Source: Dehalococcoidia bacterium (GTDB lineage Bacteria > Chloroflexota > Dehalococcoidia > Lucifugimonadales > UBA3495). Taken from it: 64,000 nucleotides of DNA. The position numbers and the translations under genes are program-made. Below, piece by piece: positions 1,158-61,580 of the stretch. The notes under the pieces were generated by a model. It saw only the letters and a list, made by a program, of their open reading frames with translations. It was not told where the DNA came from and did not search any database. The stretch covers positions 1,743,327 through 1,807,326 of the forward strand of contig CBDHEF010000002.1 in NCBI GenBank assembly GCA_965261945.1, written 5' to 3'. Each line of letters starts with the position of its first letter. The first letter of the stretch is position 1.

Positions 1158-1302
1158 AGCATCATCCGTACATGGAATCTGGAGCGGCAAAGGAAGGGAA
1201 TCCGGCGCACGGCATTTCCAAACCTGCCGACAGGCGGGATTATATGCCACGGCGGGAAAGGGGGGCAACGCGGCGGCGGGTGTGCGGCATTGTCTTTGAT
1301 AG

Positions 1303-1470
1303 TTCCCCCTCCCTCCGGAGGGTAGGATGGGGGCGTCCCCGTTTGTGAGGGAGCATTGCTGTACGCTTACCTGCGGGACGAGCTGAGCAAGGGCGTCCCC
1401 GTTTGCGAGGGAGCATTGTGCCATCCATGGATTTCACCCTCACCCCAGCCTCCTCCCTGAAGGTAGAGAG
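1303..1470. repeat. composite MITE-like element: hairpin module H, two CRISPR-like R units with one 32-nt spacer, 18-nt C module, inverted hairpin H'
   Basis: H is TTCCCCCTCCCTCCGGAGGGTAGGATGG (1303-1330). R units are at 1331-1358 and 1391-1418. C is TGCCATCCATGGATTTCA (1419-1436). H' is CCCTCACCCCAGCCTCCTCCCTGAAGGTAGAGAG (1437-1470). The same modular order recurs at 38014, 40691 and 48470. Confidence 0.7.
1331..1418 (-). CRISPR. mini CRISPR-like array, 2 repeats and 1 spacer (type I-E-like repeat family)
   Basis: GGGCGTCCCCGTTTGTGAGGGAGCATTG (1331-1358) and GGGCGTCCCCGTTTGCGAGGGAGCATTG (1391-1418) are separated by a unique 32-nt spacer, CTGTACGCTTACCTGCGGGACGAGCTGAGCAA (1359-1390). The conserved ends match the 38068 array. 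Confidence 0.4.
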
Positions 1471-1602
1471 AACTGACGATAGACCCCAGCGAGATGCGGA
1501 TGGCTTCTTGCAAACCCTTTGCGCTGTGCTATAATCACCACGTACCCAGCCTGCCCGCGTCGGGAAGGCGCGATTCCTATTTCATTGAGAGAGCCGACTG
1601 CA

Positions 1603-10409: not shown

Positions 10410-10503
10410 TTGCTGACAGTTGCCGGTTGCGAGATGCGGAGCGGTAGTTTACGATTTTTCATAAAGTTGAAGCCGTACCTATCCTGTTTAAAGAAGGAAC
10501 TTG

Positions 10504-14869: not shown

Positions 14870-16099
14870 ATGAAGATTGCTTACATTCAGCCCATCGGCG
14901 GGGCCAGCGGTGATATGCTGCTGGGGGCGCTGGTTGATGCGGGCCTGCCGCTGGAACTGCTGCGAAGCGGTCTGGCCAAGTTGCCCGTAGGCGGCTACGG
15001 CATCAACGCGGTGGAGGAAACCCGCTGCGAAATTCGCGGCACCCACCTCAAGGTCCAGCTAGAGGACCGCACCCGGCACTCCCCCGCCGCGCTGCTCCGG
15101 GCCGTAGCAGACAGCGGCCTCGAACCGGCAGTCAAGGAACGCGCGGAGTCGGTGCTCCGGGCGCTGTGGCGGGCGGAGGCGCGGGTTCATGGCGAGCCCG
15201 AGGAGTCCCTGGAGTTGGAAGAACTGGGCAGCGTAGACACGCTGGTCGACGTTGTGGGGTTCTGCATCGGACTGCGAGAGCTGGGCGTCGGCGAAGTCTA
15301 CGCCGCGCCGCTGGTGCTGGGCGAACCGTCGCCGCCGCGACGGGCCGGCGGGTATTCCAACCCCGCGCCGGCCACCCTGGAGCTGGTCGCCGCAACGGGG
15401 GCGCCGGTAGCCGCCGACAGCCCAGCCCACGCCGGGGCCGGCGAGCTCACCACCCCCACCGGCGCGGCGCTGATTACCTCGCTGGCCGAGTTTCGGCGTC
15501 CTGCGTTCTCTGTCCAGCGCGTGGGCGTCGGGCTGGGGACGAAAGATCCACGGGGTTTCCCCAACGCCTTGCGTTTGTGGCTGGGGGAAACGTCGGAACG
15601 ACCGCACCCTGACCCTCTCCCAAGAGGGGAGGGAATTAGTGGCATCTTCCAGCCCGGCAGCGTGGTTCTGCTGGAGACCAACCTCGACGATGCGCCGGGG
15701 CTGGTGCTGGGCTACGCTCAGGAGAGGCTGTTCGCCCTAGGCGCGCTGGATGTGTGGCATACGCCGGTGCAGATGAAGAAGAACCGCCCCGGCGCGGTGC
15801 TGTCCGTGCTGGTTCCCCCGCACCTGGAACAGGTCGCCGTGGAGCTGATACTGCGGGAAACGCCGACGCTGGGCATCCGCTCCCGCCGGGTTGACCGCCA
15901 CGTGGCGGACCGCCGCAGCGTCACCATCGAAACGGAGTTCGGGGCCGTCAGCGTCAAGGTCAAATCGCTCAATGGTTCAGACGTAAGCGCCGCCCCCGAA
16001 CCCGACGACTGCCGCCGAATCGCCATCGAAACAGGCTTGCCCTTCCAGGAAGTCTACCGGCGGGCAGCCGAAGCCGCCAGCCAGCAGCTTTTGGGCTAG
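14870..16099 (+). CDS. larC: nickel-pincer cofactor biosynthesis protein LarC (nickel insertion)
   Basis: MKIAYIQPIGGASGDMLLGALVDAGLP is the LarC/DUF111 N-terminus. 409 aa. It contains an in-frame repeat insertion at 15605-15633. Confidence 0.85.
   Translation: MKIAYIQPIGGASGDMLLGALVDAGLPLELLRSGLAKLPVGGYGINAVEETRCEIRGTHLKVQLEDRTRHSPAALLRAVADSGLEPAVKERAESVLRALWRAEARVHGEPEESLELEELGSVDTLVDVVGFCIGLRELGVGEVYAAPLVLGEPSPPRRAGGYSNPAPATLELVAATGAPVAADSPAHAGAGELTTPTGAALITSLAEFRRPAFSVQRVGVGLGTKDPRGFPNALRLWLGETSERPHPDPLPRGEGISGIFQPGSVVLLETNLDDAPGLVLGYAQERLFALGALDVWHTPVQMKKNRPGAVLSVLVPPHLEQVAVELILRETPTLGIRSRRVDRHVADRRSVTIETEFGAVSVKVKSLNGSDVSAAPEPDDCRRIAIETGLPFQEVYRRAAEAASQQLLG
15605..15633. repeat. hairpin module H copy located inside the larC coding sequence
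   Basis: CACCCTGACCCTCTCCCAAGAGGGGAGGG is read in frame as HPDPLPRGEG in the inter-domain linker of LarC. Confidence 0.6.
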
Positions 16100-17106: not shown

Positions 17107-17166
17107 CGATGACCGCTCACTGAACGGGGACGCCCCCACCCTGACCCACCCCCGAAAGGAAAGAGA
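17107..17166. repeat. degenerate R plus H modules of the dispersed repeat family
   Basis: CGATGACCGCTCACTGAACGGGGACGCCC is R-like and is followed by CCACCCTGACCCACCCCCGAAAGGAAAGAG, a decayed hairpin. Confidence 0.4.
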
Positions 17167-17184
17167 ACGACCGGGTGACTCTGG

Positions 17185-19889: not shown

Positions 19890-21737
19890 TCAGACAGAGA
19901 CTTTGCAATCGTCCTGAGCGTCCACCGTAGACCACTGTTCTGAAATAAGTTTTCCTGCCTCACTTTTCGGAGCGCCGGAGAGGGATTCGCAGGCTATGCC
20001 GTCGCCGTTGCCGTCGAGACGATGTGGGTCTTCCTCCGGGCCGCCGGCGGCCAGGTAGAAATTCTGGGCATCCCACCATGATGAGAAGTGGCCGCAGTTC
20101 CGGTCGGGGCCGTGGGGGTCAAAAGGCAGGCCGGAGTATGCCGCCTCGGGGGTAGGCTTCGGGGTAGACTTCGGGATGGGCGTGGCAGACTGAGCAGGCG
20201 TTGGCGTCGAGGCTTCTTCAGGCGCTCCGGGGAGCGACTGGCAGGCCACGCCGTCGCCATCCCTGTCCAAGCTGTGCGAGTCGGCGTCGGGGCCTCCCCC
20301 GGACAGAAAGAAGTCCTGAGCCTCCTGCCAGTCGGAGAAGTCACCGCAGTCCCGGTCCATAAATGCGTCTTCCGGTGGCGACGTTGGTTCCGGCGTAGGA
20401 GTGGGGGCAGGCGTGGCAGTCGGGGTCGGTGCAGATGTTGGGGCAGGGGTTGCAGTAGGGGTCGGCACTGATGTTGGAGCGGGCGTGGCAAGCGCCGTCC
20501 GGGAGGCTTCCTCCTGCTGTGGGGTGGGTTCCGGTGTGGGCGCTGATGTGGGTGTTGCGGTCGGGACAGGGGTTGGCGTTGGCGTGATGGTCGGCGTGGG
20601 GGTTGGCGGCGGCTCGCAGTTCGGTTCGCCGGAAGCGCCGAGGGGACAGTCGGCGCCATTCTCATCCGAGGGACCGGCGCCGACGGCGGCATAGAGCGCT
20701 GTTGCGCTGTCCGGCGTTGGCGATGCCCGGGCCGACGGCCCGCCGGGCAGGGATTCGCAGGGCTCGCCGTCTCCGTTGACATCCAGGTTGTGCGGGTCAT
20801 TGTCGGGGCCTCCGGCAGCCAGGAAGAAAGCCAGCGCCTCGTCGTAGGTTTCTAAATCCGCGCAGTTGCGGTCCGGGCCGAAGGGGTCGTAGCGCAACCC
20901 GGCCGGCGGGGTGGGCGGGATAGTTGCGGTGGGGACGGATGGAGCGGCCCCCTGGGTGGGTTGCAGCAACACCGGCATGGCGCAGATGGCCAGCATATTG
21001 GACAGCGCCGCATATTCGGCCTCGGTGACGCTCAGTCCCCAGTCGCGTTTGATCGTGGCCCAATCGGTGGCGTAGGAGCACCAGTAGCTTTCCAATGGCG
21101 GACGCCACTTCTCGGGGCCTTTTGACCCCTTGGAGCGGTTGGCCGAACTGGTGGTCGCGATCAGGTGGTTCTCGTAGCCCAGGTGGTTGGCGAATTCCCG
21201 CTTGCGCACCCGGTCCCAAGCCCATGCGCCGGAGCGATGCGCATTTGCCAGCGGCACCATGTGGTCAATGTCCAATTCGCCGGGGCTGCTGACGGCCTCG
21301 CCCGTGTAAGGCCCCACCCAGCTCCCGGCGTTCACCCGGCACTGTTCATCGGACTGAAAGGTCACTTCAATACTGGACTCGGCGATCAATGCTTCCTGCC
21401 TTGCGTTCCGGCAGTCGCCGTCCTCATCGGTCCAATGGCGCCACTCATCGCGGTCGTAATCCGGCAGGTCGGCCGGAACCGGAGCAACGGAAATCCGCAG
21501 CACGACTCCGGAGGCAGAGGGAGCGCTGGCAGTAATCGGGTAGGTCGGCGAAACCGCAATCTCGGTTGTCGCAGCGGGCGGCGCAATGGTGGGAGACGCG
21601 GCAGTGGGAGTCTCAGGGACAGGCGTAGATGTCCCGGGGAATTCGTCTGCAAAATCGCAGCCCGCCGCCGCCGCAAGCAAGATAAGGACCGAAAGTAGCG
21701 CGAGCAGTGAAGCCCAAAGCGATACCGGGACTCCCAT
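19890..21737 (-). CDS. secreted lipoprotein nuclease: DUF1524/HNH-type domain plus three Excalibur Ca-binding domains with Pro/Thr-rich linkers
   Basis: Signal peptide and lipobox: MGVPVSLWASLLALLSVLILLAAAAGC. Nuclease motif: DIDHMVPLANAHRSGAW...NHLIATTSSANRSKGSKGPEKW. Three repeats of DRNC..F....A..F....GGP..D.H.LD.(N/D)GDG.(A/P)C(E/Q). Track ORF 19890..22412 trimmed to ATG 21737. Confidence 0.7.
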   Translation of the reverse strand: MGVPVSLWASLLALLSVLILLAAAAGCDFADEFPGTSTPVPETPTAASPTIAPPAATTEIAVSPTYPITASAPSASGVVLRISVAPVPADLPDYDRDEWRHWTDEDGDCRNARQEALIAESSIEVTFQSDEQCRVNAGSWVGPYTGEAVSSPGELDIDHMVPLANAHRSGAWAWDRVRKREFANHLGYENHLIATTSSANRSKGSKGPEKWRPPLESYWCSYATDWATIKRDWGLSVTEAEYAALSNMLAICAMPVLLQPTQGAAPSVPTATIPPTPPAGLRYDPFGPDRNCADLETYDEALAFFLAAGGPDNDPHNLDVNGDGEPCESLPGGPSARASPTPDSATALYAAVGAGPSDENGADCPLGASGEPNCEPPPTPTPTITPTPTPVPTATPTSAPTPEPTPQQEEASRTALATPAPTSVPTPTATPAPTSAPTPTATPAPTPTPEPTSPPEDAFMDRDCGDFSDWQEAQDFFLSGGGPDADSHSLDRDGDGVACQSLPGAPEEASTPTPAQSATPIPKSTPKPTPEAAYSGLPFDPHGPDRNCGHFSSWWDAQNFYLAAGGPEEDPHRLDGNGDGIACESLSGAPKSEAGKLISEQWSTVDAQDDCKVSV

Positions 21738-22009
21738 TGAGCCTTGCGGCGCCACCCTCCTGCGAGGGGACAGCCCGCAAGCCCTGGCGTAAACTGTCGC
21801 AACTGTCGCTTTTGCCCTGTTGACCAGCAACCCTGAAACCTCGACGCCCGATAAAGGCCGGTTCAGCGGATACGCATTATATAGGCTAATTTTCTGATGT
21901 AAAGTTGCCGTCGGCGTTTCGGCCCGTTTCAGCCCCGGGTTGAGGCGGGCAGTTGGGCGGCGTATGCTGTTGTCCGGTAATTCTTGATGCAACAGGAACT
22001 TTCGAAGCA

Positions 22010-22921
22010 ATGACCAGAGAATCGGGTTTCGGCGAGGGACAGTCATTTTGTGGAAACTGCGGGGCCGTCGTGGAACCGGGCAGCCGGGCCTGCGGCGTCT
22101 GCGGGCAGCCGGTGGCGGAGGCAGACGCGCCGACGGATCCGCCGCCACGGGACTACATCCCCTACTGCCGCAGCTGCGGCGTGGGCGTGGCGTGGGGAAC
22201 CGGTCATACCTGCCAGCGATGCGGTGTGGCTCCCCTTTGCGCGTTGCATTTCCGGGCTGCCGACGGCCTGTGCCTGGACTGCGCCAACGCCCCCGCCTAC
22301 ACGGGAGGCGCGGCCGCCACGGGCGGGCTGGGCTGCGGGGCCTGTGGCGCGGCTGTCTCGCCCGACGCCGACTTCTGCCCCAACTGCGGACGGGCCGTGG
22401 CGCTCGCCCCATCCGCTCCCTCCGCTCCTTACGAAGGGGTGGAATACATGGGGTTCTGGATTCGCGCCGGGGCCTTCCTGATTGACTGGATTGCTGCCTA
22501 CCTCGTCGCGGCCATTCTTGCTGCCGTCATCGGAATCTCACTGACATCCGGCGACGCTGACCCCGCTGCCATGGAAGACATTACCATTGCCCTTGAAAAC
22601 ATCAATTACAGCTTTCTGCTGATGTTCTGGGGGTTGTCGGTAGCGCACTCGGTGCTGCTCACGGGGCTTAGAGGGCAGACCCTGGGCAAAATGCTGCTGC
22701 GGATTCAGGTTGTGGACGCCAACGGCAACGTGCCGCCGTGGCAGCGAGTGGTGGTGCGTGAGATGGTCCGCGCGGTGGTATTGCTGGCGCTGTTTCCGCT
22801 GGGTTTCATCTACATCTGGGTGGGGTTCGACGCGCGAAAACGCGGCCCGCATGACCACCTTGGAAGCTGTTATGTAGTCCGCAAGCAGCGGGGCGCCCGC
22901 CCGCCGGGCGGCATATTCTAA
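22010..22921 (+). CDS. RDD-family membrane protein with N-terminal zinc-ribbon repeats
   Basis: Several CxxC...CxxC ribbons (CGNCG..CGVCG, CRSCG..CQRCG, CGACG..CPNCG), then an RDD domain (WIRAGAFLIDWI...GQTLGKMLLRI...RGPHDHL). Confidence 0.7.
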   Translation: MTRESGFGEGQSFCGNCGAVVEPGSRACGVCGQPVAEADAPTDPPPRDYIPYCRSCGVGVAWGTGHTCQRCGVAPLCALHFRAADGLCLDCANAPAYTGGAAATGGLGCGACGAAVSPDADFCPNCGRAVALAPSAPSAPYEGVEYMGFWIRAGAFLIDWIAAYLVAAILAAVIGISLTSGDADPAAMEDITIALENINYSFLLMFWGLSVAHSVLLTGLRGQTLGKMLLRIQVVDANGNVPPWQRVVVREMVRAVVLLALFPLGFIYIWVGFDARKRGPHDHLGSCYVVRKQRGARPPGGIF

Positions 22922-26581: not shown

Positions 26582-26614
26582 TCATAGCTATATCATAGCT
26601 ATATCATAGCTATA
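26582..26614. promoter_or_regulatory. three tandem 11-bp units each containing the palindrome ATAGCTAT (putative operator array)
   Basis: TCATAGCTATA x3, perfect. The units are spaced one helical turn apart, in the spacer between the wHTH membrane protein gene and the next gene. Confidence 0.45.
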
Positions 26615-26693
26615 TCCTAACTATTTTAGGGTTTACATTCGGAGTCTGCGGCTACTATGCTGGAACAATTCACAGCATTCAGAGAGGTATCCA

Positions 26694-28063: not shown

Positions 28064-28618
28064 CTACGCCCGCCGCCGGAAGAAGCTCCAGACCGGGGCG
28101 GTGAAGCCGGGCAGAACTTCGGCTCCGTCGAAGATGTCGAACTCGGACAGAACCTGCGGCGGTTCGCCGGGGCGGTAAACGGCGAGGGTAACGGGCCGCG
28201 GGTCGGCTACCAGTACCCTCCGCACACCGTGGGACAGCCACATCATCGCCCTTTCCGCCATGTGCCGCCGGGAGTCGCCGGGAGACTTCACCTCCACCAC
28301 CAGGTCAGGCGCCAGCTCAGCGTAGCCCACCACCGGCGCCGCTAGACGGCCCGGCGCAACCCAGGTCACGTCTGGGCCGCGCACTGTGTCAGGGTCATGC
28401 TCCAGCACGAAGCCGGAATCTCCGGCCCTCACCTGCCCATAGTCATTGTCGTAGGAGTAACTGGTCAAAAGCCAAGCGATATGGGCTACAAGCGCCCCGT
28501 GTTCGTCTCCTGGCGGCATATCTTCCGTCAACACCCCGCGTATGAGTTCGCGCTGCATACCGTCGTCCGGCAATAGCAGCAGTTCCTCCGCGGTCATTAG
28601 CTTCGGCTTCGTAGTCAT
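28064..28618 (-). CDS. Uma2-family (DUF820) endonuclease
   Basis: MTAEELLLLPDDG.QRELIRG.L...H......PDV.WV...APDLVVEVKSPGD is the PD-(D/E)xK Uma2 pattern. Confidence 0.8.
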   Translation of the reverse strand: MTTKPKLMTAEELLLLPDDGMQRELIRGVLTEDMPPGDEHGALVAHIAWLLTSYSYDNDYGQVRAGDSGFVLEHDPDTVRGPDVTWVAPGRLAAPVVGYAELAPDLVVEVKSPGDSRRHMAERAMMWLSHGVRRVLVADPRPVTLAVYRPGEPPQVLSEFDIFDGAEVLPGFTAPVWSFFRRRA

Positions 28619-32250: not shown

Positions 32251-32506
32251 AAGCCCCCACCTGAAGTTCCCTCCCACTTCACCCATGCGATCCAATCGTC
32301 GTAGTTGCTTGGCTTTGCCACAGGCATTCGGAGGCAAGCCGACCAGCAACCTGGGTTCTGGGTGTCAAAACCTACCCGCAACCGGACTAACCGATTGCGG
32401 CGAATCCCCCTCGTCCGGCGCGGATATGCCGCCAGCGCACTCATAGCACTCAGAGGGTGCGTGACAAACCTCTTCCGTCCCCATTGAGCCGACGTGGGGC
32501 TGCCTT

Positions 32507-32568
32507 CGTTGTTCCGGCGAAGCTAACGGGACGCCCTCACCCTAACCCTCTCCCCAAGGGAGAGGGGG
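32507..32568. repeat. degenerate R plus H modules of the dispersed repeat family
   Basis: GTTGTTCCGGCGAAGCTAACGGGACGCCC is R-like and is followed by TCACCCTAACCCTCTCCCCAAGGGAGAGGGG, the hairpin H. Confidence 0.45.
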
Positions 32569-32629
32569 GTTGTCACATACCATCCCGGAGCGTACCAACT
32601 CAGAGCGGGTTTGCAAATTGGGGCAGGCC

Positions 32630-34952: not shown

Positions 34953-34997
34953 TTAATCAGGGCCGGGTTAATCAGGGCCGGGTTAATCAGGGCCGGG
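34953..34997. repeat. perfect 3 x 15-bp tandem repeat in the coxS-coxL spacer
   Basis: TTAATCAGGGCCGGG x3. On the minus strand each unit carries TGA and TAA, and the first unit supplies the coxS stop (34987-34989). Confidence 0.9.
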
Positions 34998-35457
34998 AGC
35001 TTTCGACGGCGGCCATCACCGCCTCGATAACCTTGGAATAGCCGGTGCACCGGCACAGGTTACCTCCGAGGCCGAATTTAACCTCTTCCTCTGTGGGGTC
35101 GGGAATGCTGTTGAGCAGCCCCACCGTGGCCATGATCAGCCCCGGCGTACAGTAGCCGCACTGCAGCCCGCCGTGTTCGGCGAAGCTGCGTTGCACCGGG
35201 TGAAGCTCGCCGCCTGACGCCAGCCCCTCGACGGTGGTGACCTCGGCGTCGTGGGCGCTGTGGGCCAGCACTAGGCACGAGGTCACCATCTGCCCGTTCA
35301 GCAGCACGGTGCAGGCCCCGCAGTCGCCCTCGTCGCATCCCTTCTTGGTGCCGGTCAGGTGCAACTCGTCCCGCAGCATATCCAGCAGCGAGCAGAAAGG
35401 CTCCACCAGCATGGTGCGTTCAATACCGTTGACGGTAATGCTCAGTGGTCTCTTCAT
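34987..35457 (-). CDS. (2Fe-2S)-binding small subunit (CoxS-like)
   Basis: GTKKGCDEGDCGACTV...QCGYCTPG...LCRCTGY are both 2Fe-2S cluster motifs. Confidence 0.9.
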   Translation of the reverse strand: MKRPLSITVNGIERTMLVEPFCSLLDMLRDELHLTGTKKGCDEGDCGACTVLLNGQMVTSCLVLAHSAHDAEVTTVEGLASGGELHPVQRSFAEHGGLQCGYCTPGLIMATVGLLNSIPDPTEEEVKFGLGGNLCRCTGYSKVIEAVMAAVESSRP

Positions 35458-35467
35458 AACAATCCCT

Positions 35468-35520
35468 TTGCGTCCTTGCGTCCTTGCGTCCTTGCGACGT
35501 TGCGACGTTGCGACGTTGCG
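35468..35520. repeat. 8-bp-period tandem array filling the coxM-coxS spacer
   Basis: (TTGCGTCC)x3 (TTGCGACG)x3 TTGCG. It lies between the coxM stop (35521-35523) and the coxS ATG (35457). Confidence 0.9.
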
Positions 35521-36444
35521 TTAGAACACTGCCTGAATCGCCAACCGCCGGTGGTCTTCATAAGCGAGCGGACTGCCAGCGGCCGACTCGGTTGCCCGCT
35601 CCAGCGTCCGGCGAGTCAGAACGCCGGACATCTGGCGTCGGTATCCGGCCGTGCCCCGGATGTCGTCTATCGGGCTGGCCTGGGCCATCGCCTCGTCGGC
35701 TGCCGCCTGCAACAGCTCCGCGCTGAGTTCCCGGCCGCGGAGCAGATCTTCGGCGGCGTAGGCCCGCAGGGGAGTCGGGGCGACTGCGCCCAGGGCGATG
35801 CGGGCGTCGGCGCAAACACCGGAACGCCGGTCAACCGTGACCACCGAGGCCACGCCGACGGTGGCGATGTCCATGGCGCCTCGCGGGCTGTGCTTGATAT
35901 ACAGCGAGCCGGTGTTCGGCGGGGGCGGGGGCAGGCTGATTTCGGTCAGCACCTCGTCGTGGGCCAACACTGTCCGCCCCGGCCCCGTGAAAAGCTGGTC
36001 GAGGGGCGCCTGGCGATGCCCGTCCGGGCCGGACAGACGGCCCTCCGCGGCGTAGGCCAGCAGCGCAGGCAGCGTGTCGCCCGAGGGCGAAGCGTTGCAG
36101 ATGTTGCCGCCCACTGTCGCCAGGTTCCGCACCTGCACCCCGGCAAAGGCAGCGGCCGCCGCCGCCAGCGCGGGATAATGCCGACGTATGGCCGGGTGCT
36201 GCTCCAGTGTCTGAATCGTTACCATCGCGCCGAGCCGCAGGCCGTTTCGTGCGCTGTAGGTCACCCGGCTTATGCCAGGAACGCGTTGTATGTTCACCAC
36301 GTAGTCGGGATGCCAGAACCCGGCGCGCCACCGGACGAGAAAGTCGGTGCTGCCAGCCACAATCCGGGCCTGCTCTCCGTGCCGCTGCAACATTCCAATG
36401 GCTTGCCGGAGCGTCCGCGCCTCCAGATACTCAAAACGCCTCAT
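35521..36444 (-). CDS. FAD-binding medium subunit (CoxM-like)
   Basis: FEYLEARTLRQAIGML...ARIVAGSTDF...LATVGGNI are FAD_binding_5/CO dehydrogenase flavoprotein motifs. Confidence 0.85.
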   Translation of the reverse strand: MRRFEYLEARTLRQAIGMLQRHGEQARIVAGSTDFLVRWRAGFWHPDYVVNIQRVPGISRVTYSARNGLRLGAMVTIQTLEQHPAIRRHYPALAAAAAAFAGVQVRNLATVGGNICNASPSGDTLPALLAYAAEGRLSGPDGHRQAPLDQLFTGPGRTVLAHDEVLTEISLPPPPPNTGSLYIKHSPRGAMDIATVGVASVVTVDRRSGVCADARIALGAVAPTPLRAYAAEDLLRGRELSAELLQAAADEAMAQASPIDDIRGTAGYRRQMSGVLTRRTLERATESAAGSPLAYEDHRRLAIQAVF

Positions 36445-36680: not shown

Positions 36681-37901
36681 GTGTACATATACGGCATTAG
36701 AAATTGGGGCGCTTCCCTGAGATTCAGGGACTTCCGGACGCTCTGGGCCTCGACGGTACTCTATTCCCTGGGCACCGGGATGGAGCAGGTCTCCGTAGGG
36801 TGGCTCATCTTCGAGTTGACTGACTCGCCGTTCATGGTGGGCGTGGGAGCAGCGGCCCGGATGCTGCCCTTCTTCCTCCTGGGCGTGTTGTCCGGTGTAA
36901 TCGCCGATAGGTGGGATCGCCGGATGCTGCTCAGGGCCGGGACACTGGGGGCCTCCGCCGCAGCGCTGGCGACGGCCCTCCTGCTGTTGGGCGGACTCGA
37001 CAACGTCTGGCTCTTCATCGCCCTGGTGGCCGTCTTCGGCAGCCTGATGGCCTTTACCATTACCATACGGCAGACCTTAACCTACGACATCGTGGGGCAG
37101 CCACACGCCCTGAACGGGCTGGCCCTGGGCGCAATGGCCATGCAGGGGGGCGGCATCGCCGGGTCCCTCGCCTCCGGGGCGCTGATCGAGTTCGTAGGCC
37201 CAGGCTGGCAGTTCGTTGCCGCGGCTGTTTGCTATCTGGGATCCTCCCTCGTGATTCTGGCCATCGGCGACCCGGCCCATTCCGCGAGGTCGGCCGCCGA
37301 ACCTGTGCTGAAGAATCTGGCGGGTTATGTCAGGCTGGTCCGCGAGAACCGCATCCTGCTCGTCCTCATGCTGCTGACTGCGGCCACGGAAGTGTTCGGG
37401 TTTACGCACATGACCCTGCTTCCCGTCTTCGCCAGGGAGGTCCTTCACGTTGGAGCGACGGGCCTGGGAATTATGACCGCCATGCGCCAGGTCGGGGGCC
37501 TGCTGGGACTCTGGGTCCTGGCCGGGCTGGCCGCCTTCCGCAGGAAGGGGCTGATGATGTTCCTGATTGCCATCGGTTTTGGTTGCGGCCAGATGGCGTT
37601 TTCCCTGTCCAGCAATCTCTACTACTTTCTGGGGGTGCTGCTGTTGGTCAACGCCTGCGCCATGGCCGTCGATACCATCTACAAGACCCTCATGCAGGAA
37701 AGCGTCGCCGACGAAGAGCGCGGTCGCGCCATGGGTTCGTGGGTACTGAGCATCGGCGTTGCGCCAGTGGGCCACTTGGGAATTGGGGCGCTGGCGGGTA
37801 TGCTGGGAGCCCCGGGGGCACTGCTGATTAACGGCTCCGTCCTGGCGGCCGTCAGCATTGGCGCGGCGCTCGGGCTGCCTGGGATAAGGCGGCTGGAGTA
37901 G
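36681..37901 (+). CDS. MFS transporter
   Basis: About 12 hydrophobic segments, with an MFS-like loop motif GVIADRWDRRMLL between TM2 and TM3. GTG start, so the start is uncertain. Confidence 0.75.
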   Translation: MYIYGIRNWGASLRFRDFRTLWASTVLYSLGTGMEQVSVGWLIFELTDSPFMVGVGAAARMLPFFLLGVLSGVIADRWDRRMLLRAGTLGASAAALATALLLLGGLDNVWLFIALVAVFGSLMAFTITIRQTLTYDIVGQPHALNGLALGAMAMQGGGIAGSLASGALIEFVGPGWQFVAAAVCYLGSSLVILAIGDPAHSARSAAEPVLKNLAGYVRLVRENRILLVLMLLTAATEVFGFTHMTLLPVFAREVLHVGATGLGIMTAMRQVGGLLGLWVLAGLAAFRRKGLMMFLIAIGFGCGQMAFSLSSNLYYFLGVLLLVNACAMAVDTIYKTLMQESVADEERGRAMGSWVLSIGVAPVGHLGIGALAGMLGAPGALLINGSVLAAVSIGAALGLPGIRRLE

Positions 37902-38013
37902 GAGCGGCTTACGGATACGCCATCCATACCTTGAGGTCTCCAATCAGGAGTCAGCATCCAAGACCGGCGGCCAGACGCAGACCCTGCCGATGTCAGGGCA
38001 TAGTCTCTTGATT

Positions 38014-38243
38014 CTCCCTCTCCCTTGAAGGAGAGGGCTGGGGTGAGGGACAAATCCGGGGATGCCACAATGTTCCCTCACCAGCGGGGACGCCCTACGG
38101 TTATGACGTGGACGTTGCGCGGTCGTACAATGTTCCCTGCACCAGCGGGGACGCCCATTGTCAGGCAACGTTAGGCTTCCTGCCTTGACAATGTTCCCTG
38201 CACCAGCGGGGACGCCCCCACCTTGACCCTCCCCCGGAGGGAG
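38014..38243. repeat. composite MITE-like element (inverse orientation): H, C, three R units with two 32-nt spacers, H'
   Basis: H is CTCCCTCTCCCTTGAAGGAGAGGGCTGGGGTGAGGG (38014-38049). C is ACAAATCCGGGGATGCCA (38050-38067). The R array is at 38068-38217. H' is CCACCTTGACCCTCCCCCGGAGGGAG. Confidence 0.7.
38068..38217 (+). CRISPR. mini CRISPR-like array, 3 repeats and 2 spacers, type I-E-like repeat
   Basis: Repeats of CAATGTTCCCT(G)CACCAGCGGGGACGCCC are at 38068-38095, 38128-38156 and 38189-38217. The spacers are exactly 32 nt each and are unrelated to each other. The repeat core GTTCCCTGCACCAGCGGGGA closely matches the E. coli I-E repeat GAGTTCCCCGCGCCAGCGGGGATAAACCG. Confidence 0.55.
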
Positions 38244-38448
38244 ATGGAACAACTGAAAAAAACCGCGAATCATGTTCGGCGCTTGTCGGGATAACATGGC
38301 AGGTGGTACAACCACCGGGTACAGGTCAATCGGGGTGGCTGACCTGGCGCCGGGCATAGGCCGTTTCTCGCAATTTCCAGCCGCATCATCCCCACCCACC
38401 GATTCCCGCCGCGCCAGTCGGCACGGCCACTACGACGAGGTGCCGGAC

Positions 38449-40617: not shown

Positions 40618-40805
40618 CCCCCTCTCCCTCCGGGGGGGAGGGTTGGGGCAGGGTTGGGGCGCACTTCGATACGCGAAATAACCTGCGGTCGCCCCCCTCT
40701 ACCTCCGGGGGAAGGGTTGGGGTGGGGGCGTCCCCTTTTCGCCAGCGACATTGCCATAGCCCACGAATCCCGCTCTTGCCCCAGCCCAATCCCTCCAGGG
40801 AGAGG
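40618..40805. repeat. two adjacent copies of the dispersed element (H plus degenerate core, then H-R-C-H')
   Basis: H is at 40618-40661. The second H (CCCCCCTCTACCTCCGGGGGAAGGGTTGGGGTGGG) is at 40691-40725. R (GGGCGTCCCCTTTTCGCCAGCGACATTG) is at 40726-40753. C is at 40754-40771. A decayed H' is at 40772-40805. Confidence 0.6.
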
Positions 40806-40911
40806 ACCGAAAAATCGCGAGCAACCGAATCTCGGCCCTTGCCGGACAGACGTGGCCGGTGGTACAAACAGCGAGGCAACTCAAGAGAACCCGCGTGAAA
40901 GGAGATTTGAC

Positions 40912-48424: not shown

Positions 48425-48440
48425 AGGGGCAGGGGCTTTT

Positions 48441-48583
48441 GGTCCTCCCCCCCGGGGAGGATTTAGTTATTCCCTCTCCCACCGGGGGAGGGTTAGGGTG
48501 GGGGCGTCCCTGCTGGTGAGCCAACATTGTGTCATCCCAAGCATTCTCCCTCACCCCAACCCTCTCCCTTAAGGGAGAGGGAG
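48441..48583. repeat. archetypal single-core copy of the composite element (H-R-C-H') preceded by an extra small hairpin
   Basis: Extra hairpin: TCCTCCCCCCCGGGGAGGA (48443-48461). H: TTCCCTCTCCCACCGGGGGAGGGTTAGGGTGG (48470-48501). R: GGGCGTCCCTGCTGGTGAGCCAACATTG (48502-48529). C: TGTCATCCCAAGCATTCT (48530-48547). H': CCCTCACCCCAACCCTCTCCCTTAAGGGAGAGGGAG. Confidence 0.7.
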
Positions 48584-48602
48584 AATAGAGAGACCCTGCG
48601 CC

Positions 48603-58067: not shown

Positions 58068-59744
58068 TCAGGCGTGTCGCTCCAGGCCAAAGAGGCCGAA
58101 CAGCTCTTCGCGGTTCAGCCGGGACGAAAGATCCAGCGAAACGTCATCGACGAGTTGGTCAAACAATTCCTGTTTCCTCGCAAGGATGGAGTCTATACGC
58201 TCTTCGATAGTCCCCGCGCATGAATACTTAATCACATTGACCTTGACCGTTTGGCCCATACGGTGGCTTCTGTCCTCGGCCTGCCGCTCCACCGCAGGGT
58301 TCCACCACCGGTCCAGATGAAAGACGTAGGATGCCTCCTGCAGGTTCAAGCCCAAGCCGCCCGCGCGTAGGGAAATAACCAGCGCTTTATGCCTGCTTTC
58401 GCTCTTGAAGCGGTCAATAATATGGGGCCTGTCCTGAAGAGGCACGTCTCCGGTGATGACCAGGGGGTTGAATTTTTTCAGCCGGCTTGCGGCGGCGGCC
58501 ACGCCTGCGGTGTCGCTGGTGTATTGGGAGAAGACCAGCGCCTTGTGTCCCTGAGCTACCAGCAGGTCCAGCCTTTCCCTGATGTCGTCCAGCTTGCTGG
58601 ACTCGCCGCTCTTGGGGTCGGCGTTGCAAATCTGCTTCAAGCGGGTGACCAGCTCCAGCACATGCTGAATGCTAATGTCTCTACCCAGTGATCTGAGGTA
58701 TACGATTCCCTCGCTCTCAGCCTTTTCGTAACTTGCCCGCTGCCTGGGGTGCAGGTCGATTGGCAACAGGGTGACCTGCTTTTCCGGAAGGTCGTCGAGC
58801 ACCTCGCCCTTTTTGCGCCTGAGCTGGAGTTGGCGGTGCCGGTTCAGGAGTTCCCGCCCTGGTTGGAACCGATTGGGCTCGCCCTCTATATCATAATCAA
58901 CAAACTCCAGGATGGACGCCAATTCCTCCTCGTGGTTCTCTATCGGAGTTCCGGTCAGCGCCCAGGAACGAACACGCCTCAGTCCCTTGAGCGACCTGCT
59001 GGTATCGTTCCGGTTCTTGATCCGTTGGGCCTCGTCGGCAACCACGACGTCCCAGAGCTTTCTCCTCACAGGAGATTGGTTGTTGCCCTCGAAGTCGGAC
59101 CTCAGCGTCTCATAGCTGACCAGGGTCACGTCGGTTTCAGCCTGCCACTGCCAACGCCGGTCAGACGCTGAACCCCTGATAATGATCGCCGATAGCTCGG
59201 GGGCCCACTTTCGAAGCTCCCCGCGCCACTGGTCCAGCAGGCTGGCGGGAGCAGCCACCAGCGTTGACCCGATTTCTCCGCGACGAGATAGGATTCGCAG
59301 GGCGGCAATGACCTGTAGCGTCTTGCCAAGGCCCATGTCGTCGGCCAACAGAAGGCGATCACTGGCGATGAGGGCTCTGACCCCGTCCTCCTGGAAGGGC
59401 ATCAACTTCCCGGGCCACTCCAGGTCATCGTCTATCGGCGGGCTGGAAGGATCTGAATCCGCCGGAGACAATACCTTGAGAAGCCTACGGGCCAGGGAGA
59501 GTTCCCGGTCGGGGTTGGAGATGCCCGCCGAATTGTCAGAATGCCGGTGAAAGCCCGACGGTGCGCCCCTGTGCAGATACTCCAGTTCAACCACCGTCGC
59601 CGGTTCTGCGGACGCAGGTGCAGAGACCGGCAGAAATCTCACCGGCTCAATCGAGCGCCCAGCCCGGGGCGAGAAGTTGATGTCCCTCAGCAAGGCCGCC
59701 CCCCTATCATCTGTCGCTGTACGCTTCCGCGATTCCTGCGGCAA
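58068..59744 (-). CDS. SNF2-family helicase/translocase (gene 5 of candidate system)
   Basis: Motif I LLADDMGLGKTLQ, motif II VVADEAQRIKN, motif III ALTGTPIEN, then KALVFSQY and LRAGGLGLNLQ...DRWWNPAVERQAEDRSHRMGQ. The N-terminal ~110 aa are unassigned. TTG start at 59744 overlaps the upstream gene by 38 nt, with an alternative TTG at 59693. Confidence 0.85.
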   Translation of the reverse strand: MPQESRKRTATDDRGAALLRDINFSPRAGRSIEPVRFLPVSAPASAEPATVVELEYLHRGAPSGFHRHSDNSAGISNPDRELSLARRLLKVLSPADSDPSSPPIDDDLEWPGKLMPFQEDGVRALIASDRLLLADDMGLGKTLQVIAALRILSRRGEIGSTLVAAPASLLDQWRGELRKWAPELSAIIIRGSASDRRWQWQAETDVTLVSYETLRSDFEGNNQSPVRRKLWDVVVADEAQRIKNRNDTSRSLKGLRRVRSWALTGTPIENHEEELASILEFVDYDIEGEPNRFQPGRELLNRHRQLQLRRKKGEVLDDLPEKQVTLLPIDLHPRQRASYEKAESEGIVYLRSLGRDISIQHVLELVTRLKQICNADPKSGESSKLDDIRERLDLLVAQGHKALVFSQYTSDTAGVAAAASRLKKFNPLVITGDVPLQDRPHIIDRFKSESRHKALVISLRAGGLGLNLQEASYVFHLDRWWNPAVERQAEDRSHRMGQTVKVNVIKYSCAGTIEERIDSILARKQELFDQLVDDVSLDLSSRLNREELFGLFGLERHA

Positions 59745-60249
59745 CTCTGCGAAACGGTTCCAGGGGATCGGAGCGTTCCACTATCGTCTTCAGCAACCGC
59801 CGCGCCACCGAGTCTTCCTGGGGAGGGGAGGTGCTCCAGACCAAGAATAGCGATGCGCCGATCTGTTCGATTTCCTCGGACGCACCCCTCCGCGGCGCGG
59901 GATCAGTGGATACCCGGCATAACGGGACATCAATCCTGATGTTTTCGGAGAAAACCAACGGGGGAATCTCATCAGCCAGCCCCACAATGACGCTGGGAGT
60001 CCGTCCCGCCGAATGGAACAGTGTCTCGATCAACGATAACACGGTCGTCCTGCGAGCCTCCCCCATCCTCCACAGCCTGGAATCGTGGAAGTCTATGCGG
60101 GTAAAGCTGAACTCAAGCGGCACGTCCTGAGACGATGCCATGAATAGCGCCGCCCGGATTCCTGAACCGCTGTCCTCGTCCAGAAACCGCAGAAATCCAA
60201 CCGTTCCAGTCGTAGCCTCGTCTTCTCTATTTTCGAGCAGTATGGGCAT
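59707..60249 (-). CDS. hypothetical 180-aa protein (gene 4 of candidate system)
   Basis: ORF in operonic position with coding-like composition. No motif recognised. Confidence 0.5.
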   Translation of the reverse strand: MPILLENREDEATTGTVGFLRFLDEDSGSGIRAALFMASSQDVPLEFSFTRIDFHDSRLWRMGEARRTTVLSLIETLFHSAGRTPSVIVGLADEIPPLVFSENIRIDVPLCRVSTDPAPRRGASEEIEQIGASLFLVWSTSPPQEDSVARRLLKTIVERSDPLEPFRRVAAGIAEAYSDR

Positions 60250-60281
60250 CCTGGCTCTTTTCGGAGAACGAACATGGGAAC

Positions 60282-61565
60282 CTATCCGGCGGCGCCCTCT
60301 TCATTCTCTATCCCGTCTTCCTGGTCACCGATTTCAACGTACTGGTGTCTGAATTCCCGCTCTTCGGTCTCCGGGCTGGAATCCGGGTATAACCTGAGAA
60401 GGTCCCACTGATTTATTGCGGAGCGAATCTGGTAGCGCATCCTCTGCTGGAAGCTCGCCACATCGGTCCTGGCTTCAACCACCGGGGCATCCCACTCGTA
60501 GGCTCGGCTGTAAATCCGGCGCAACTGGCCGAGCGTGTTACTCAGGTCCAAGTCAGTCGGGGCTCTCAACGGGGTGCATTCAGACTCCAGCAGTCGCATC
60601 GCCATTTCGGCGCGCGCTGCCTGGGCGCCTTCATTGCGAGCGCGCAGCCGCTGCGCGGCATAGTCGCGGTCTTTCTTGCTGGTTGCCCCCGCCGACAGTA
60701 CATTCAGGGCGAAATCCGCAGACACGGTTCCAACGACCACCAGTCCAGGACAGGTTTCACCGGCGGCCTGACCCAGCCAACGGCCCAGCTCTGCGTAAGA
60801 GCGGGCGCGCTGCAACAGGCTGTACTGGCCCACCAACTCAATTTCGTCCAGCAGGACCACCCATCCCCGGTAGCCCGCGCCCTTGATCAGTTCGGTAGCG
60901 AAGCGGAGACGCTGGGGGGGCAAATCAGCAGCTCTGGGCGCTTTGAAAGAGTAGCTCTGTAGCTGGCCTATCTGCTTCAGACCATCTTTCACTGTGCCGA
61001 TCTTTATCCTGTCTCCCGCCCAGAAGGACTCGATAGTCCTGTTCAACTCCAAGTCATTCGACCTCTCGTGTACCAGCAGACTGGCCGGAAAGATGGGGTG
61101 AACGCCGCTGGAAGAGGAATTCCCCCAGCGGAAGAGGGCAGAGTACTCCTCGGTATTCTGGTTAAGGTCGAATCCGATTTCCTCGATAAGCGGGCCGGTG
61201 CGTCCTTGGACCCGCCCGTTGTCCATTGCCGACTTGAACACCTTGCCAAGGTCATAGAGTGGCGTTTCCTTGCTGATGGCCACCTTGCTGCATACGAAGC
61301 CCTCGGAGAGCGCCCGGTGTTCGAAATGGGAAAGCAGGTGAGACTTACCAGTGCCGAAATCTCCCGAAACCAGCATTCCCAGTGCGCCTTCGGGGGGTGC
61401 GCGCTCGGCAGACGCGCGCCCGAGCAGTCCTTCGAACTCGCTCTCCGGGCGAGGCTGATTGCAGCCAAGCAACTGCACCGCCTCGCGGTTGGGGACGCCG
61501 TTTCGCAGGGCCTCCAACGCCCGGCGGCAGGCCAGGGTGGAAAACCCGTCGCTGACTTCATTCAT
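60282..61565 (-). CDS. P-loop ATPase resembling the DUF2791 / BrxD-type (BREX-associated) ATPase family (gene 3)
   Basis: Walker A is VSGDFGTGKSHLL and Walker B is GWVVLLDEIELV, followed by LVVVGTVSADF. The family name comes from motif recall and is not confirmed by search. Confidence 0.65.
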   Translation of the reverse strand: MNEVSDGFSTLACRRALEALRNGVPNREAVQLLGCNQPRPESEFEGLLGRASAERAPPEGALGMLVSGDFGTGKSHLLSHFEHRALSEGFVCSKVAISKETPLYDLGKVFKSAMDNGRVQGRTGPLIEEIGFDLNQNTEEYSALFRWGNSSSSGVHPIFPASLLVHERSNDLELNRTIESFWAGDRIKIGTVKDGLKQIGQLQSYSFKAPRAADLPPQRLRFATELIKGAGYRGWVVLLDEIELVGQYSLLQRARSYAELGRWLGQAAGETCPGLVVVGTVSADFALNVLSAGATSKKDRDYAAQRLRARNEGAQAARAEMAMRLLESECTPLRAPTDLDLSNTLGQLRRIYSRAYEWDAPVVEARTDVASFQQRMRYQIRSAINQWDLLRLYPDSSPETEEREFRHQYVEIGDQEDGIENEEGAAG

Positions 61566-61580
61566 CTGGCGGATTCCTCG

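What the first reader, a model, noticed from the sequence alone, without database searches (positions are those of the whole stretch)
38014..38243. Orphan mini-array with type I-E CRISPR geometry embedded between inverted hairpin repeats
**What the sequence shows.** Three 28/29-nt repeats of CAATGTTCCCT(G)CACCAGCGGGGACGCCC sit at 38068, 38128 and 38189. Two mutually unrelated spacers of exactly 32 nt separate them:
- TACGGTTATGACGTGGACGTTGCGCGGTCGTA
- ATTGTCAGGCAACGTTAGGCTTCCTGCCTTGA

**Established knowledge.** The E. coli type I-E repeat is GAGTTCCCCGCGCCAGCGGGGATAAACCG, with 32-nt spacers. The core here, GTTCCCTGCACCAGCGGGGA, keeps the same stem-loop (CCCnGC / nCCA / GCGGGG).

**What is unusual.** There is no AT-rich leader and no cas gene in 64 kb. 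The array is bracketed by inverted copies of a hairpin module (CCCTCTCCC-loop-GGGAGAGGG plus a G-rich tail) and an 18-nt conserved segment. It looks like the cargo of a MITE-like element.

**Inference.** It could be a functional satellite array serviced in trans by a distant I-E system. It could be a mobilised array. It could also be a CRISPR-derived structured repeat.
Basis: partly seen in the sequence, partly recalled or inferred. Interest (0 to 1): 0.8.

Follow-up and report, generated by a model that had tools for sequence, protein, structure and literature searches.

The report
CRISPR-like mini-arrays inside dispersed palindromic repeats
A common intergenic palindromic repeat of a soil Dehalococcoidia bacterium has, in two of its copies here, had its 28-base core reiterated with unique 32-base inserts, which looks like CRISPR spacer integration into a non-CRISPR element, although no cas genes could be found or searched for outside this window.

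Summary
Three 28/29-nt repeats at 38068, 38128 and 38189 are separated by two unrelated 32-nt spacers.

The array is the expanded centre of a dispersed intergenic element, not a stand-alone array. The flanking "hairpin modules" are an inverted pair of the published TMECO/boxC-type intrastrand-triplex motif. Between them lie a conserved 18-nt segment and a 28-nt core.

Copies of the element:
- One with 2 repeats and one 32-nt spacer at 1300-1473 (-).
- One with a single core at 48461-48590 (-).
- Degenerate copies at 40.7, 32.5 and 17.1 kb.
- Single-core copies in three other Dehalococcoidia MAGs.

Nine syntenic relatives carry only a simple hairpin at the 38-kb site.

All three reiteration events duplicate the same segment and insert exactly 32 unique nt. 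That is the signature of Cas1-Cas2 integration (neo-CRISPR-like), and it is my best explanation at about 0.5.

The main weaknesses:
- The window has no cas genes, and the rest of the genome was unreachable.
- No protospacer was found.
- The I-E resemblance is strong only for the 29-nt variant; the 3' handle differs.

Function is unknown. I class it as a new variant of known kinds, with interest about 0.58.

The parts
37999..38014 (+). Outer terminus of the element (CATAGTCTCTTGATTC; family consensus CAGGGTCTTTTGATTC).
   Evidence: 3 matches in the window against 0.35 expected. The same terminus flanks the simple hairpins of the relatives.
38016..38049 (+). Left TMECO-type triplex/hairpin motif: CCCTCTCCC-TTGAA-GGAGAGGG-CTG-GGGTGAGGG.
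   Evidence: regex built on the published consensus; PMC4666352.
38050..38067 (+). Conserved 18-nt segment ACAAATCCGGGGATGCCA, adjacent to the first repeat.
   Evidence: Alignments of element copies.
38068..38095 (+). Repeat 1, 28 nt. It is identical to the single core of the MAG locus L001.
38096..38127 (+). Spacer 1, 32 nt, unique.
38128..38156 (+). Repeat 2, 29 nt. The extra G gives a 7-bp stem with a 4-nt loop.
38157..38188 (+). Spacer 2, 32 nt, unique. Its ends pair with the start of the next repeat.
   Evidence: Fold z-score -2.5.
38189..38217 (+). Repeat 3, 29 nt, identical to repeat 2.
38218..38252 (-). Right TMECO-type motif, an inverted and imperfect copy of the left one, plus the right terminus GGAACAA.
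1300..1473 (-). Second copy of the whole element with 2 repeats. Right TM 1300-1330; repeat 1331-1358; 32-nt spacer 1359-1390; repeat 1391-1418; 18-nt segment 1419-1436; left TM 1437-1473.
48461..48590 (-). Third copy, with a single core (48502-48529) between inverted TM motifs. Outer termini lie at 48430-48445 and 48583-48598.
40695..40806 (-). Degenerate copy with a decayed core. It is orthologous to L011 12460-12586.
32470..32570 (+). Degenerate copy (decayed core plus right TM). It is orthologous to L011 4540-4660.
17109..17173 (+). Partial copy: core-like segment plus right TM.

Best explanation
The locus is one copy of a dispersed, palindromic, non-coding intergenic element of a Dehalococcoidia (Chloroflexota) genome.

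**Architecture.** The element is an inverted pair of TMECO/boxC-type hairpin-plus-G-tract motifs around a conserved centre of about 46 nt. The centre is an 18-nt segment followed by a 28-nt hairpin-forming core.

**What happened here.** In two of the three intact copies in this window the core has been reiterated. Each event duplicated exactly the core and placed exactly 32 nt of unrelated DNA between the two copies.

**Proposed mechanism (inferred, not shown).** A fixed-length insert of heterogeneous sequence plus a fixed-length target duplication is what a Cas1-Cas2 integrase produces. I therefore propose that a resident CRISPR adaptation module, type I-E-like judging by repeat and spacer size and by the stem-loop, used the repeat-like core as an integration site. 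That created natural 'neo-CRISPR' mini-arrays: one spacer at 1.3 kb and two at 38 kb.

**Shown.**
- The anatomy, the family and the identity of the flanks.
- The exact geometry of the three events.
- The uniqueness of the spacers within the data I could reach.
- The differences from syntenic relatives.

**Inferred.**
- The integrase.
- The direction of growth. Parsimony favours growth at the right-hand end of the 38-kb array, because repeat 1 has the ancestral 28-nt form.
- Any expression of the arrays.

Whether the arrays make crRNAs is unknown.
For: **Geometry**
- Repeats are 28/29 nt and all three spacers are exactly 32 nt. The periods are 60, 61 and 60 nt at two independent loci whose cores differ in sequence.
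- The duplicated segment has the same boundaries, CAATG...GACGCCC, in all three events.
- Repeats 2 and 3 are 100% identical, while spacers 1 and 2 share nothing. That rules out duplication followed by divergence.
- No spacer matches the window or about 370 kb of related loci.

**Resemblance to type I-E**
- The 29-nt repeat folds into a 7-bp stem with a 4-nt loop on the + strand at -12 kcal/mol, like the E. coli I-E repeat. The opposite strand folds less well, at -8.7 kcal/mol.
- It matches the E. coli repeat at 19 of 27 positions, shuffle p about 2.5e-4.

**Element first, reiteration second**
- Single-core copies exist at 48.5 kb and in three other Dehalococcoidia MAGs.
- Repeat 1 at 38068 is identical to the single core of L001.
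- Nine syntenic relatives, with a peptidase 92-95% identical, have only a collapsed hairpin at the site.
- Intact cores are enriched in this genome: 6 in 64 kb, against none in the syntenic loci of the relatives.

**Precedent**
- Off-target Cas1-Cas2 integration that spawns new arrays is described by Nivala et al. 2018, as cited in bioRxiv 10.1101/148544 and PMC6698737.
Against: - No cas gene in 64 kb. The rest of the genome could not be examined.
- No canonical array with this repeat in 185,579 species-representative genomes. No array-form match in the metagenome collection.
- No protospacer in viral contigs, phages or plasmids.
- The part downstream of the stem (ACGCCC, 5-6 nt) does not resemble the conserved I-E 5' handle (AUAAACCG). 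The stem sits about 2 nt further from the 5' border than in E. coli.
- Most cores of the family resemble the I-E repeat only weakly (p 0.02-0.09).
- There is no AT-rich leader.
- The polarity inferred from the variant repeat (growth at the right end) is opposite to the I-E orientation suggested by the hairpin.
- There are only three events at two loci.
Confidence: 0.5

Rival explanations
1. These are genuine small CRISPR arrays of a resident type I-E-like system. On this view the conserved flanks (18-nt segment and TM motifs) act as leader and trailer. The single-core copies are arrays that collapsed to one repeat by recombination between repeats, and the unit was spread around the genome by the palindromic element.
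For: - The same geometric evidence as for the best explanation.
- A conserved segment sits directly next to the first repeat in every copy.
- The 29-nt variant inside the array has the best I-E-like hairpin.
Against: - The centre is conserved, in diverged form, in distant Dehalococcoidia elements that have no array.
- The species-representative genomes hold only single cores.
- The flanks are a motif found from E. coli to cyanobacteria with no CRISPR link (PMC4666352).
- There is no promoter-like or AT-rich leader. The only promoter-like hit lies inside spacer 1.
- There is no cas gene in the window.
Confidence: 0.15
2. This is a non-CRISPR modular repeat, comparable to the pneumococcal BOX element with its A-(B)n-C structure. 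The unstable TM-pair structure would promote slippage, template switching or recombination that reiterates the core. The 32-nt segments would then be interchangeable element modules or filler, not captured foreign DNA.
For: - TM loci are documented hot spots of local rearrangement (PMC4666352).
- In this window they coincide with a synteny break at 1.5 kb and with indel and inversion differences at 38 and 48 kb.
- In one relative the 38-kb site has taken up an IS element.
- There are no cas genes and no protospacers.
- Spacer 2 forms a hairpin with the next repeat.
Against: - Slippage or duplication would copy the spacer as well. Here the spacers are unrelated while the repeats are identical.
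- Three inserts of exactly 32 nt, with identical duplication boundaries at two loci, are not expected from template switching.
- Spacers 1 and 3 show no structure beyond chance.
- No spacer recurs in any other copy seen.
Confidence: 0.2
3. This is a structured non-coding RNA or a protein-binding site array. The reiterated hairpins would be selected as binding or processing sites, for example for an RNA-binding protein or as a decoy for a Cas6-like nuclease, independently of any immunity function.
For: - The whole 251-nt element folds better than shuffles, z = -3.1.
- The hairpin is more stable on one strand, because of a G-U pair.
- The 38-kb copy lies just downstream of, and co-directional with, the MFS gene, so read-through transcription is possible.
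Against: - RNAalifold on six copies gives no covariation support. The covariation term is unfavourable at +2.53. The predicted consensus is simply the pairing of the inverted flanks and does not contain the core hairpin.
- No Rfam family matches.
- The 1.3-kb copy sits between divergent promoters and is not obviously transcribed.
- This view does not explain the unique 32-nt inserts.
Confidence: 0.1
4. Assembly artefact in a repeat-rich region of a metagenome-assembled genome.
For: - The relatives come from long-read metagenome assemblies (contig names).
- The 1-nt length difference between repeat 1 and repeats 2 and 3 could in principle be a read error.
Against: - Unique spacers cannot be produced by collapsing or expanding repeats.
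- Two independent loci show the same geometry.
- The G indel is not in a homopolymer, and the 28-nt form equals the L001 core exactly.
Confidence: 0.03

Closest known systems
Neo-CRISPR arrays formed by off-target Cas1-Cas2 spacer integration (Nivala, Shipman and Church 2018, E. coli I-E; known to me through citing papers)
   Same: - A repeat-length stretch of non-CRISPR DNA is duplicated around a spacer-length insert, giving a 2-repeat, 1-spacer locus that can then grow.
- No cas genes lie adjacent.
   Different: - This would be a natural case in Chloroflexota.
- It occurs at a multicopy dispersed element that offers many equivalent seeds, with two loci hit in 64 kb.
- The integrase is not identified.
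Orphan mini-CRISPR arrays and solitary repeat units (SRUs) of viruses and proviruses (Faure 2019; Medvedeva 2019; summarised in PMC8616872)
   Same: - One to two spacers, or a lone repeat.
- No cas genes.
- Presumed dependence on a host system in trans.
   Different: - These loci sit between housekeeping chromosomal genes (an MFS transporter and oligopeptidase B; coaX and a ferredoxin), not in a provirus.
- The repeat is not shown to match any host array.
- No spacer target was found.
TMECO / boxC-type intrastrand-triplex motifs in inverted pairs (Holder et al. 2015, PMC4666352; Hoyne et al. 2000)
   Same: - The flanks fit CCCTCNCCC-N3-6-GGGNGAGGG-N3-GGGNGAGGG.
- They are intergenic and occur as a forward and a reverse unit around a short centre, exactly as in E. 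coli K-12.
- They are associated with local rearrangement.
   Different: - The centre here is longer (about 46 nt, against 18-30 nt) and is conserved across Dehalococcoidia.
- The centre contains a CRISPR-repeat-like core that is reiterated with spacers.
- The E. coli centres are not similar to it.
Pneumococcal BOX elements and other modular MITE-like repeats (boxA-(boxB)n-boxC); comparison from my own knowledge
   Same: - Terminal inverted modules.
- A variable number of an internal module.
- Intergenic and non-autonomous.
   Different: boxB copies are contiguous and have no unique intervening sequence. Here every reiteration carries a different 32-nt insert.
Canonical type I-E CRISPR repeat (E. 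coli GAGTTCCCCGCGCCAGCGGGGATAAACCG, 32-nt spacers)
   Same: - 29-nt repeat and 32-nt spacers.
- A 7-bp GC-rich stem with a 4-nt loop.
- 18 of 20 identical positions in the stem-loop core of the 29-nt variant.
   Different: - The sequence 3' of the stem is ACGCCC, not AUAAACCG.
- The stem is offset by about 2 nt.
- The family consensus core (CCCTCRCNAACGGGG) has a weaker stem.
- There is no leader and no cas operon in view.

Membership tests
CRISPR array (generic) | Two or more near-identical direct repeats of 23-47 nt | tested here: met
   Three repeats of 28/29 nt at 38 kb and two of 28 nt at 1.3 kb.
CRISPR array (generic) | Unique spacers of uniform length | tested here: met
   Three spacers, all 32 nt, with no mutual or external similarity.
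CRISPR array (generic) | Cas genes adjacent or elsewhere in the genome | tested here: not met
   No Cas family among about 60 ORFs of the 64-kb window.
CRISPR array (generic) | AT-rich leader with a promoter | tested here: not met
   The flanks are GC-rich TM motifs. The only sigma-70-like hit lies inside spacer 1.
CRISPR array (generic) | Spacers match mobile genetic elements | tested here: inconclusive
   No exact 20-22-mers in viral contigs. No blastn hit at E<=10 in phages or plasmids. Most environmental spacers have no known match, so this decides nothing.
CRISPR array (generic) | Spacer content varies between related strains at the same locus | tested here: inconclusive
   Nine syntenic relatives lack the centre altogether. 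No closer strain was available.
CRISPR array (generic) | Transcription and processing into crRNAs | not testable with these tools
   Needs small-RNA sequencing.
Type I-E repeat family | 28-29-nt repeat with a 7-bp GC stem and 4-nt loop; 32-33-nt spacers | tested here: met
   Met for the 29-nt variant. The 28-nt forms have weaker stems of 5-6 bp.
Type I-E repeat family | Conserved 3' part giving the 8-nt 5' handle (AUAAACCG / AUGRACCG) | tested here: not met
   The sequence after the stem is ACGCCC, followed directly by the spacer. The I-E handle consensus is from my own knowledge.
Type I-E repeat family | Match to a curated CRISPR direct-repeat model | tested here: inconclusive
   No Rfam CRISPR-DR hit at E<=10. 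The genuine E. coli K-12 I-E array also gives none better than E=8.7, so the test has no power.
TMECO / boxC-type intrastrand-triplex motif pair | Fit to the sequence pattern CCCTCNCCC-N3-6-GGGNGAGGG-N3-GGGNGAGGG | tested here: met
   12 matches in the window (up to 2 mismatches per arm) against about 1.6 in shuffles. They include both flanks of all three intact copies. The consensus is from PMC4666352.
TMECO / boxC-type intrastrand-triplex motif pair | Intergenic; occurs as forward plus reverse units around a short centre | tested here: met
   The same layout is seen in E. coli K-12.
TMECO / boxC-type intrastrand-triplex motif pair | Forms an intrastrand triplex | not testable with these tools
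   Needs CD or NMR, as in PMC4666352.
MITE | Terminal inverted repeats, size under 300 bp, multicopy, and differences between relatives at the same site | tested here: met
MITE | Target-site duplication and a cognate transposase | tested here: not met
   No target-site duplication is evident from comparing filled sites with collapsed sites. No transposase in the window.
Neo-CRISPR (off-target spacer integration) | Duplication of a repeat-length target around a spacer-length insert at a non-CRISPR site | tested here: met
   Single-core copies show the pre-integration state.
Neo-CRISPR (off-target spacer integration) | An active Cas1-Cas2 in the same cell, and resemblance of the target to its genuine leader-repeat junction | not testable with these tools
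   The genome outside the window is unavailable.
Viral or proviral mini-array / SRU | Carried on a virus, provirus or plasmid | tested here: not met
   The neighbours are housekeeping genes and are syntenic in the relatives.
CreTA-type CRISPR-repeat-like regulatory module | Located within or next to a cas operon | tested here: not met
   No cas genes in the window.

The most novel reading that the evidence does not exclude
A multicopy palindromic intergenic element (a TM pair with a repeat-like core) acts as a genome-wide set of seeds at which the host's adaptation machinery starts new CRISPR arrays. If so, this window catches array birth in nature at two loci. The same element family could also be a vehicle that disperses CRISPR repeats, linking a widespread and functionally unexplained class of bacterial repeats (TMECO/boxC) to CRISPR evolution.
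Probability: 0.3. Interest if true: 0.85.

Novelty: new variant of a known kind. Interest (0 to 1): 0.58.

Why it matters
How new CRISPR arrays arise is known mainly from one over-expression experiment in E. coli. Natural examples are circumstantial.

These loci show the solitary target, a one-spacer state and a two-spacer state of the same element within one genome. If confirmed, they would be a clear natural series of array birth.

They would also give the first concrete biological interaction for the widespread TMECO/boxC triplex-motif pairs, whose function is unknown.

There is a practical point too. Such loci are scored as low-confidence arrays by CRISPR finders. Recognising the element would help separate real mini-arrays from repeat noise in Chloroflexota MAGs.

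Tried and rejected
1. **Rfam.** There was no CRISPR-DR or other family hit at the gathering threshold or at E<=10. I rejected this as a test because the E. coli K-12 I-E array fails it as well.
2. **Metagenome scan for the array form** (GGGGACGCCC-N28-36-CAATGNTCCCT). It gave five hits, all chance matches in coding DNA.
3. **Viral-contig scans.** I scanned for five spacer 20-22-mers, the core pattern and the 20-nt stem-loop. The only result was one chance hit in a coding region.
4. **blastn of the spacers** against phages and plasmids: no match.
5. **Six-frame pseudo-protein of the element** searched against the protein collection, to find spurious ORFs over other copies: nothing at E<=10.
6. 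**Exact look-up of the window's MFS protein**, to find the source contig: not on record. None of the 15 listed members of the peptidase cluster (of 32) is identical to the window's protein.
7. **Spacers as terminal hairpins.** Only spacer 2 folds beyond chance, so I rejected this as a general feature.
8. **E. coli TM-pair centres related to the I-E repeat or to this centre.** Not significant.
9. **A conserved RNA structure for the single-core element.** There is no covariation support.
10. **Self-derived spacer.** The 1.3-kb spacer has a 15-nt exact match, 21 of 32 overall, to a coxS-like gene. By my estimate p is about 0.04-0.1, so I treat it as chance.

Full report
**1. The observation**

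- Three direct repeats start at 38068, 38128 and 38189. The first is 28 nt (CAATGTTCCCTCACCAGCGGGGACGCCC). The other two are 29 nt and identical to each other (CAATGTTCCCTGCACCAGCGGGGACGCCC).
- The two intervening segments are each exactly 32 nt and are unrelated.
- A gapped pattern for the repeat is expected 0.00 times in dinucleotide shuffles of the window and occurs five times. The other two occurrences form a second locus on the minus strand: repeats at 1331-1358 and 1391-1418 with one 32-nt spacer at 1359-1390.

**2. What surrounds it**

Aligning the two loci shows that the whole unit is repeated, not only the 28-nt repeat. From left to right it consists of:
- a left hairpin with a G-rich tail;
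- an 18-nt segment;
- the repeat(s);
- a C-rich tail with a right hairpin.

Further copies:
- A third copy at 48461-48590 (-) has both flanks and a single core.
- A profile built from single-core versions finds degenerate copies at 40695-40806, about 32470-32570 and 17109-17173. It also finds stand-alone hairpin-plus-tail units.
- A scan of 185,579 species-representative genomes found the strict core pattern five times. Three of the hits are the same composite element with a single core, all in Dehalococcoidia MAGs (L001, L003, L005). I read one of the other two (L004) and it lies in unrelated sequence with no element context; L002, in a Methanoregula MAG, I did not inspect. No genome had an array.
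- A more diverged element in another relative (L017) keeps a recognisably homologous centre.

**3. Identity of the flanks**

A literature search with the flank sequence led to Holder et al. 2015 (PMC4666352).
- The module is the 'TMECO' intrastrand-triplex motif, 5'-CCCTCNCCC-N3-6-GGGNGAGGG-N3-GGGNGAGGG-3'.
- It is abundant in many bacteria and always intergenic.
- It is often found as a forward-plus-reverse pair.
- It is associated with elevated local rearrangement, and no transposase is known for it.

A regex built on that consensus finds 12 sites in the window against about 1.6 in shuffles. These include both flanks of all three intact copies. The E. coli K-12 pairs that I fetched have the same layout with centres of 18-30 nt. 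Their centres are not similar to this one or to the I-E repeat.

The element's outer termini (CAGGGTCTTTTGATTC) recur at 38 and 48 kb and around the simple hairpins of the relatives.

**4. Genomic context**

- The 38-kb copy lies between an MFS transporter gene (36681-37901, +) and an oligopeptidase B gene (ending at 40617, +).
- The 1.3-kb copy lies between divergent coaX and ferredoxin genes.
- The 48-kb copy lies between convergent SMP-30/gluconolactonase and PEP-mutase-like genes.
- Pfam scans of about 60 ORFs covering the window found no Cas protein and no transposase.
- The organism is a Dehalococcoidia bacterium. Its peptidase is 92-95% identical over full-length alignments (96% to one partial 352-residue member) to a protein cluster that includes a protein on a 4,025,620-bp contig. 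That length is the same as chromosome OZ245439.1, titled Dehalococcoidia bacterium.
- The window's own genome is not in the collections I could query.

**5. Comparison with relatives**

- Nine syntenic loci from that cluster all carry only a single short hairpin between the MFS and peptidase genes. Eight of them (L011, L023-L029) have a spacer of 150-151 nt. The ninth (L033) has the same hairpin followed by an inserted gene and an IS element. The hairpin has the same outer termini as the window's element, but its internal part is in the opposite orientation.
- The 48-kb site likewise holds one long hairpin in the close relative L011.
- These are therefore old element sites whose content differs. 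Either the relatives collapsed the element to a hairpin, which is the kind of deletion Holder et al. describe for palindromic pairs, or this lineage gained the full centre.
- Decayed copies at 40.7 and 32.5 kb are shared with L011.
- No intact core occurs in the related loci reached through proteins (about 340 kb). The window has six intact cores in 64 kb.
- The synteny break at the left end of the window coincides with the 1.3-kb copy.
- In one relative the 38-kb site has taken up an IS3-family element.

**6. What made the reiterations**

Three events at two loci share three exact properties:
- the same duplicated segment, from CAATG to GACGCCC;
- an insert of exactly 32 nt;
- a different, unique insert each time.

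Repeats 2 and 3 are identical although spacers 1 and 2 share nothing. This excludes tandem duplication followed by divergence.

The only mechanism I know that inserts heterogeneous DNA of fixed length while duplicating a fixed-length target is Cas1-Cas2 integration. The sizes (28/29 + 32) are those of type I-E and I-F arrays.

The 29-nt variant supports the I-E comparison:
- It folds into a 7-bp stem with a 4-nt loop on the + strand, like the E. coli I-E repeat.
- It matches that repeat at 19 of 27 positions, shuffle p about 2.5e-4. Even after allowing for a few dozen repeat families that could have been compared, this remains suggestive.

Off-target integration that founds new arrays is documented for E. 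coli by Nivala et al. 2018. I could read that paper only through papers that cite it.

Repeat 1 has the 28-nt form that is identical to the L001 single core. Parsimony therefore suggests this order of events:
1. single core;
2. first spacer;
3. G insertion in the right-hand repeat;
4. second spacer at the right end.

**7. Why confidence stays near 0.5**

- No cas gene is in view, and the genome could not be searched.
- No canonical array with this repeat exists in the representative genomes.
- The array form is absent from the metagenome collection.
- No protospacer was found.
- The sequence 3' of the stem (ACGCCC) is unlike the conserved I-E handle, and the stem is offset by about 2 nt.
- The other cores of the family resemble the I-E repeat only weakly (p 0.02-0.09).
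- There is no leader-like sequence.
- The polarity inferred above conflicts with the I-E orientation of the hairpin.
- Rfam could not arbitrate, because the authentic E. coli array also fails to hit its CRISPR-DR models.
- RNAalifold gives no covariation support for a conserved RNA structure.

The main rival is a non-CRISPR modular expansion at an unstable TM site. It fits the rearrangement-prone context but does not explain three unique inserts of identical length.

**8. Verdict**

Membership of type I-E and service in trans by a distant system remain unproven.

The most likely reading is neo-CRISPR-type mini-arrays seeded in the repeat-like core of a TMECO-pair element. That is a new variant of known kinds. 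A census of the element in the full genome, together with a cas search, would settle it.

Noticed in passing
window 15601-15633 (-), inside the LarC ORF 14870-16099 (+): A TM-type hairpin and G-tract motif lies in frame inside the nickel-insertion protein LarC gene. It encodes ...HPDPLPRGEGISG..., so it looks like an element copy absorbed into a coding sequence.
   Followed up: no
L033 6720-10000 (ENA ERZ25766727 ctg352194): In one relative the same MFS-peptidase intergenic site carries an inserted PD40/Tricorn-like gene and an IS3-family transposase, just downstream of the simple hairpin. The site is an insertion hot spot.
   Followed up: partly
window 58068-62546 (-): A defence-like cluster: an SNF2-family helicase followed by two ORFs with BrxC/BrxD-type ATPase matches. 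No other BREX components were seen within the window.
   Followed up: no
window 10501-13017 (+): A large fused restriction-modification protein (HSDR_N, N6_Mtase/Eco57I and Methylase_S domains) with unusually low third-position GC (0.51, against about 0.8 for its neighbours). It was probably acquired horizontally.
   Followed up: no
window 19890-22412 (-) and 28064-28618 (-): A GmrSD_C nuclease-domain protein with Excalibur domains and a long Pro/Thr-rich low-complexity region, and a Uma2-family putative endonuclease.
   Followed up: no
window 1359-1390 compared with L011 7377-7408 and window 35357-35388: The 1.3-kb spacer shares a 15-nt exact stretch (21 of 32 overall) with the coxS-like [2Fe-2S] subunit gene of a relative, and 20 of 32 with the window's own copy. 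This is borderline (p roughly 0.04-0.1) and probably chance.
   Followed up: partly
window 1-1500 compared with L014-L017 9370-10000: Four relatives that carry an identical ferredoxin have an AsnC-type regulator upstream of it, whereas the window has coaX. Homology to them starts at the ferredoxin promoter (about 1504), so the synteny break abuts the 1.3-kb element copy. The relatives L015 and L014 have TM-like hairpin sequence in the same place; I did not see one in L017.
   Followed up: partly
L031 and L032 (E. coli K-12 164.5 kb and 3046 kb): The E. coli inverted TMECO pairs have the same architecture as the Dehalococcoidia element (forward TM, short centre, reverse TM), although the two phyla are very distant. 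The spread of this motif is unexplained.
   Followed up: partly
window 34953-34997, 35468-35521 and 26582-26624: Perfect or near-perfect short tandem repeats: 15 nt x3, 8/16 nt x6.8, and 11 nt x3.9. They lie next to or inside the CO-dehydrogenase-like gene cluster and in an intergenic region.
   Followed up: no
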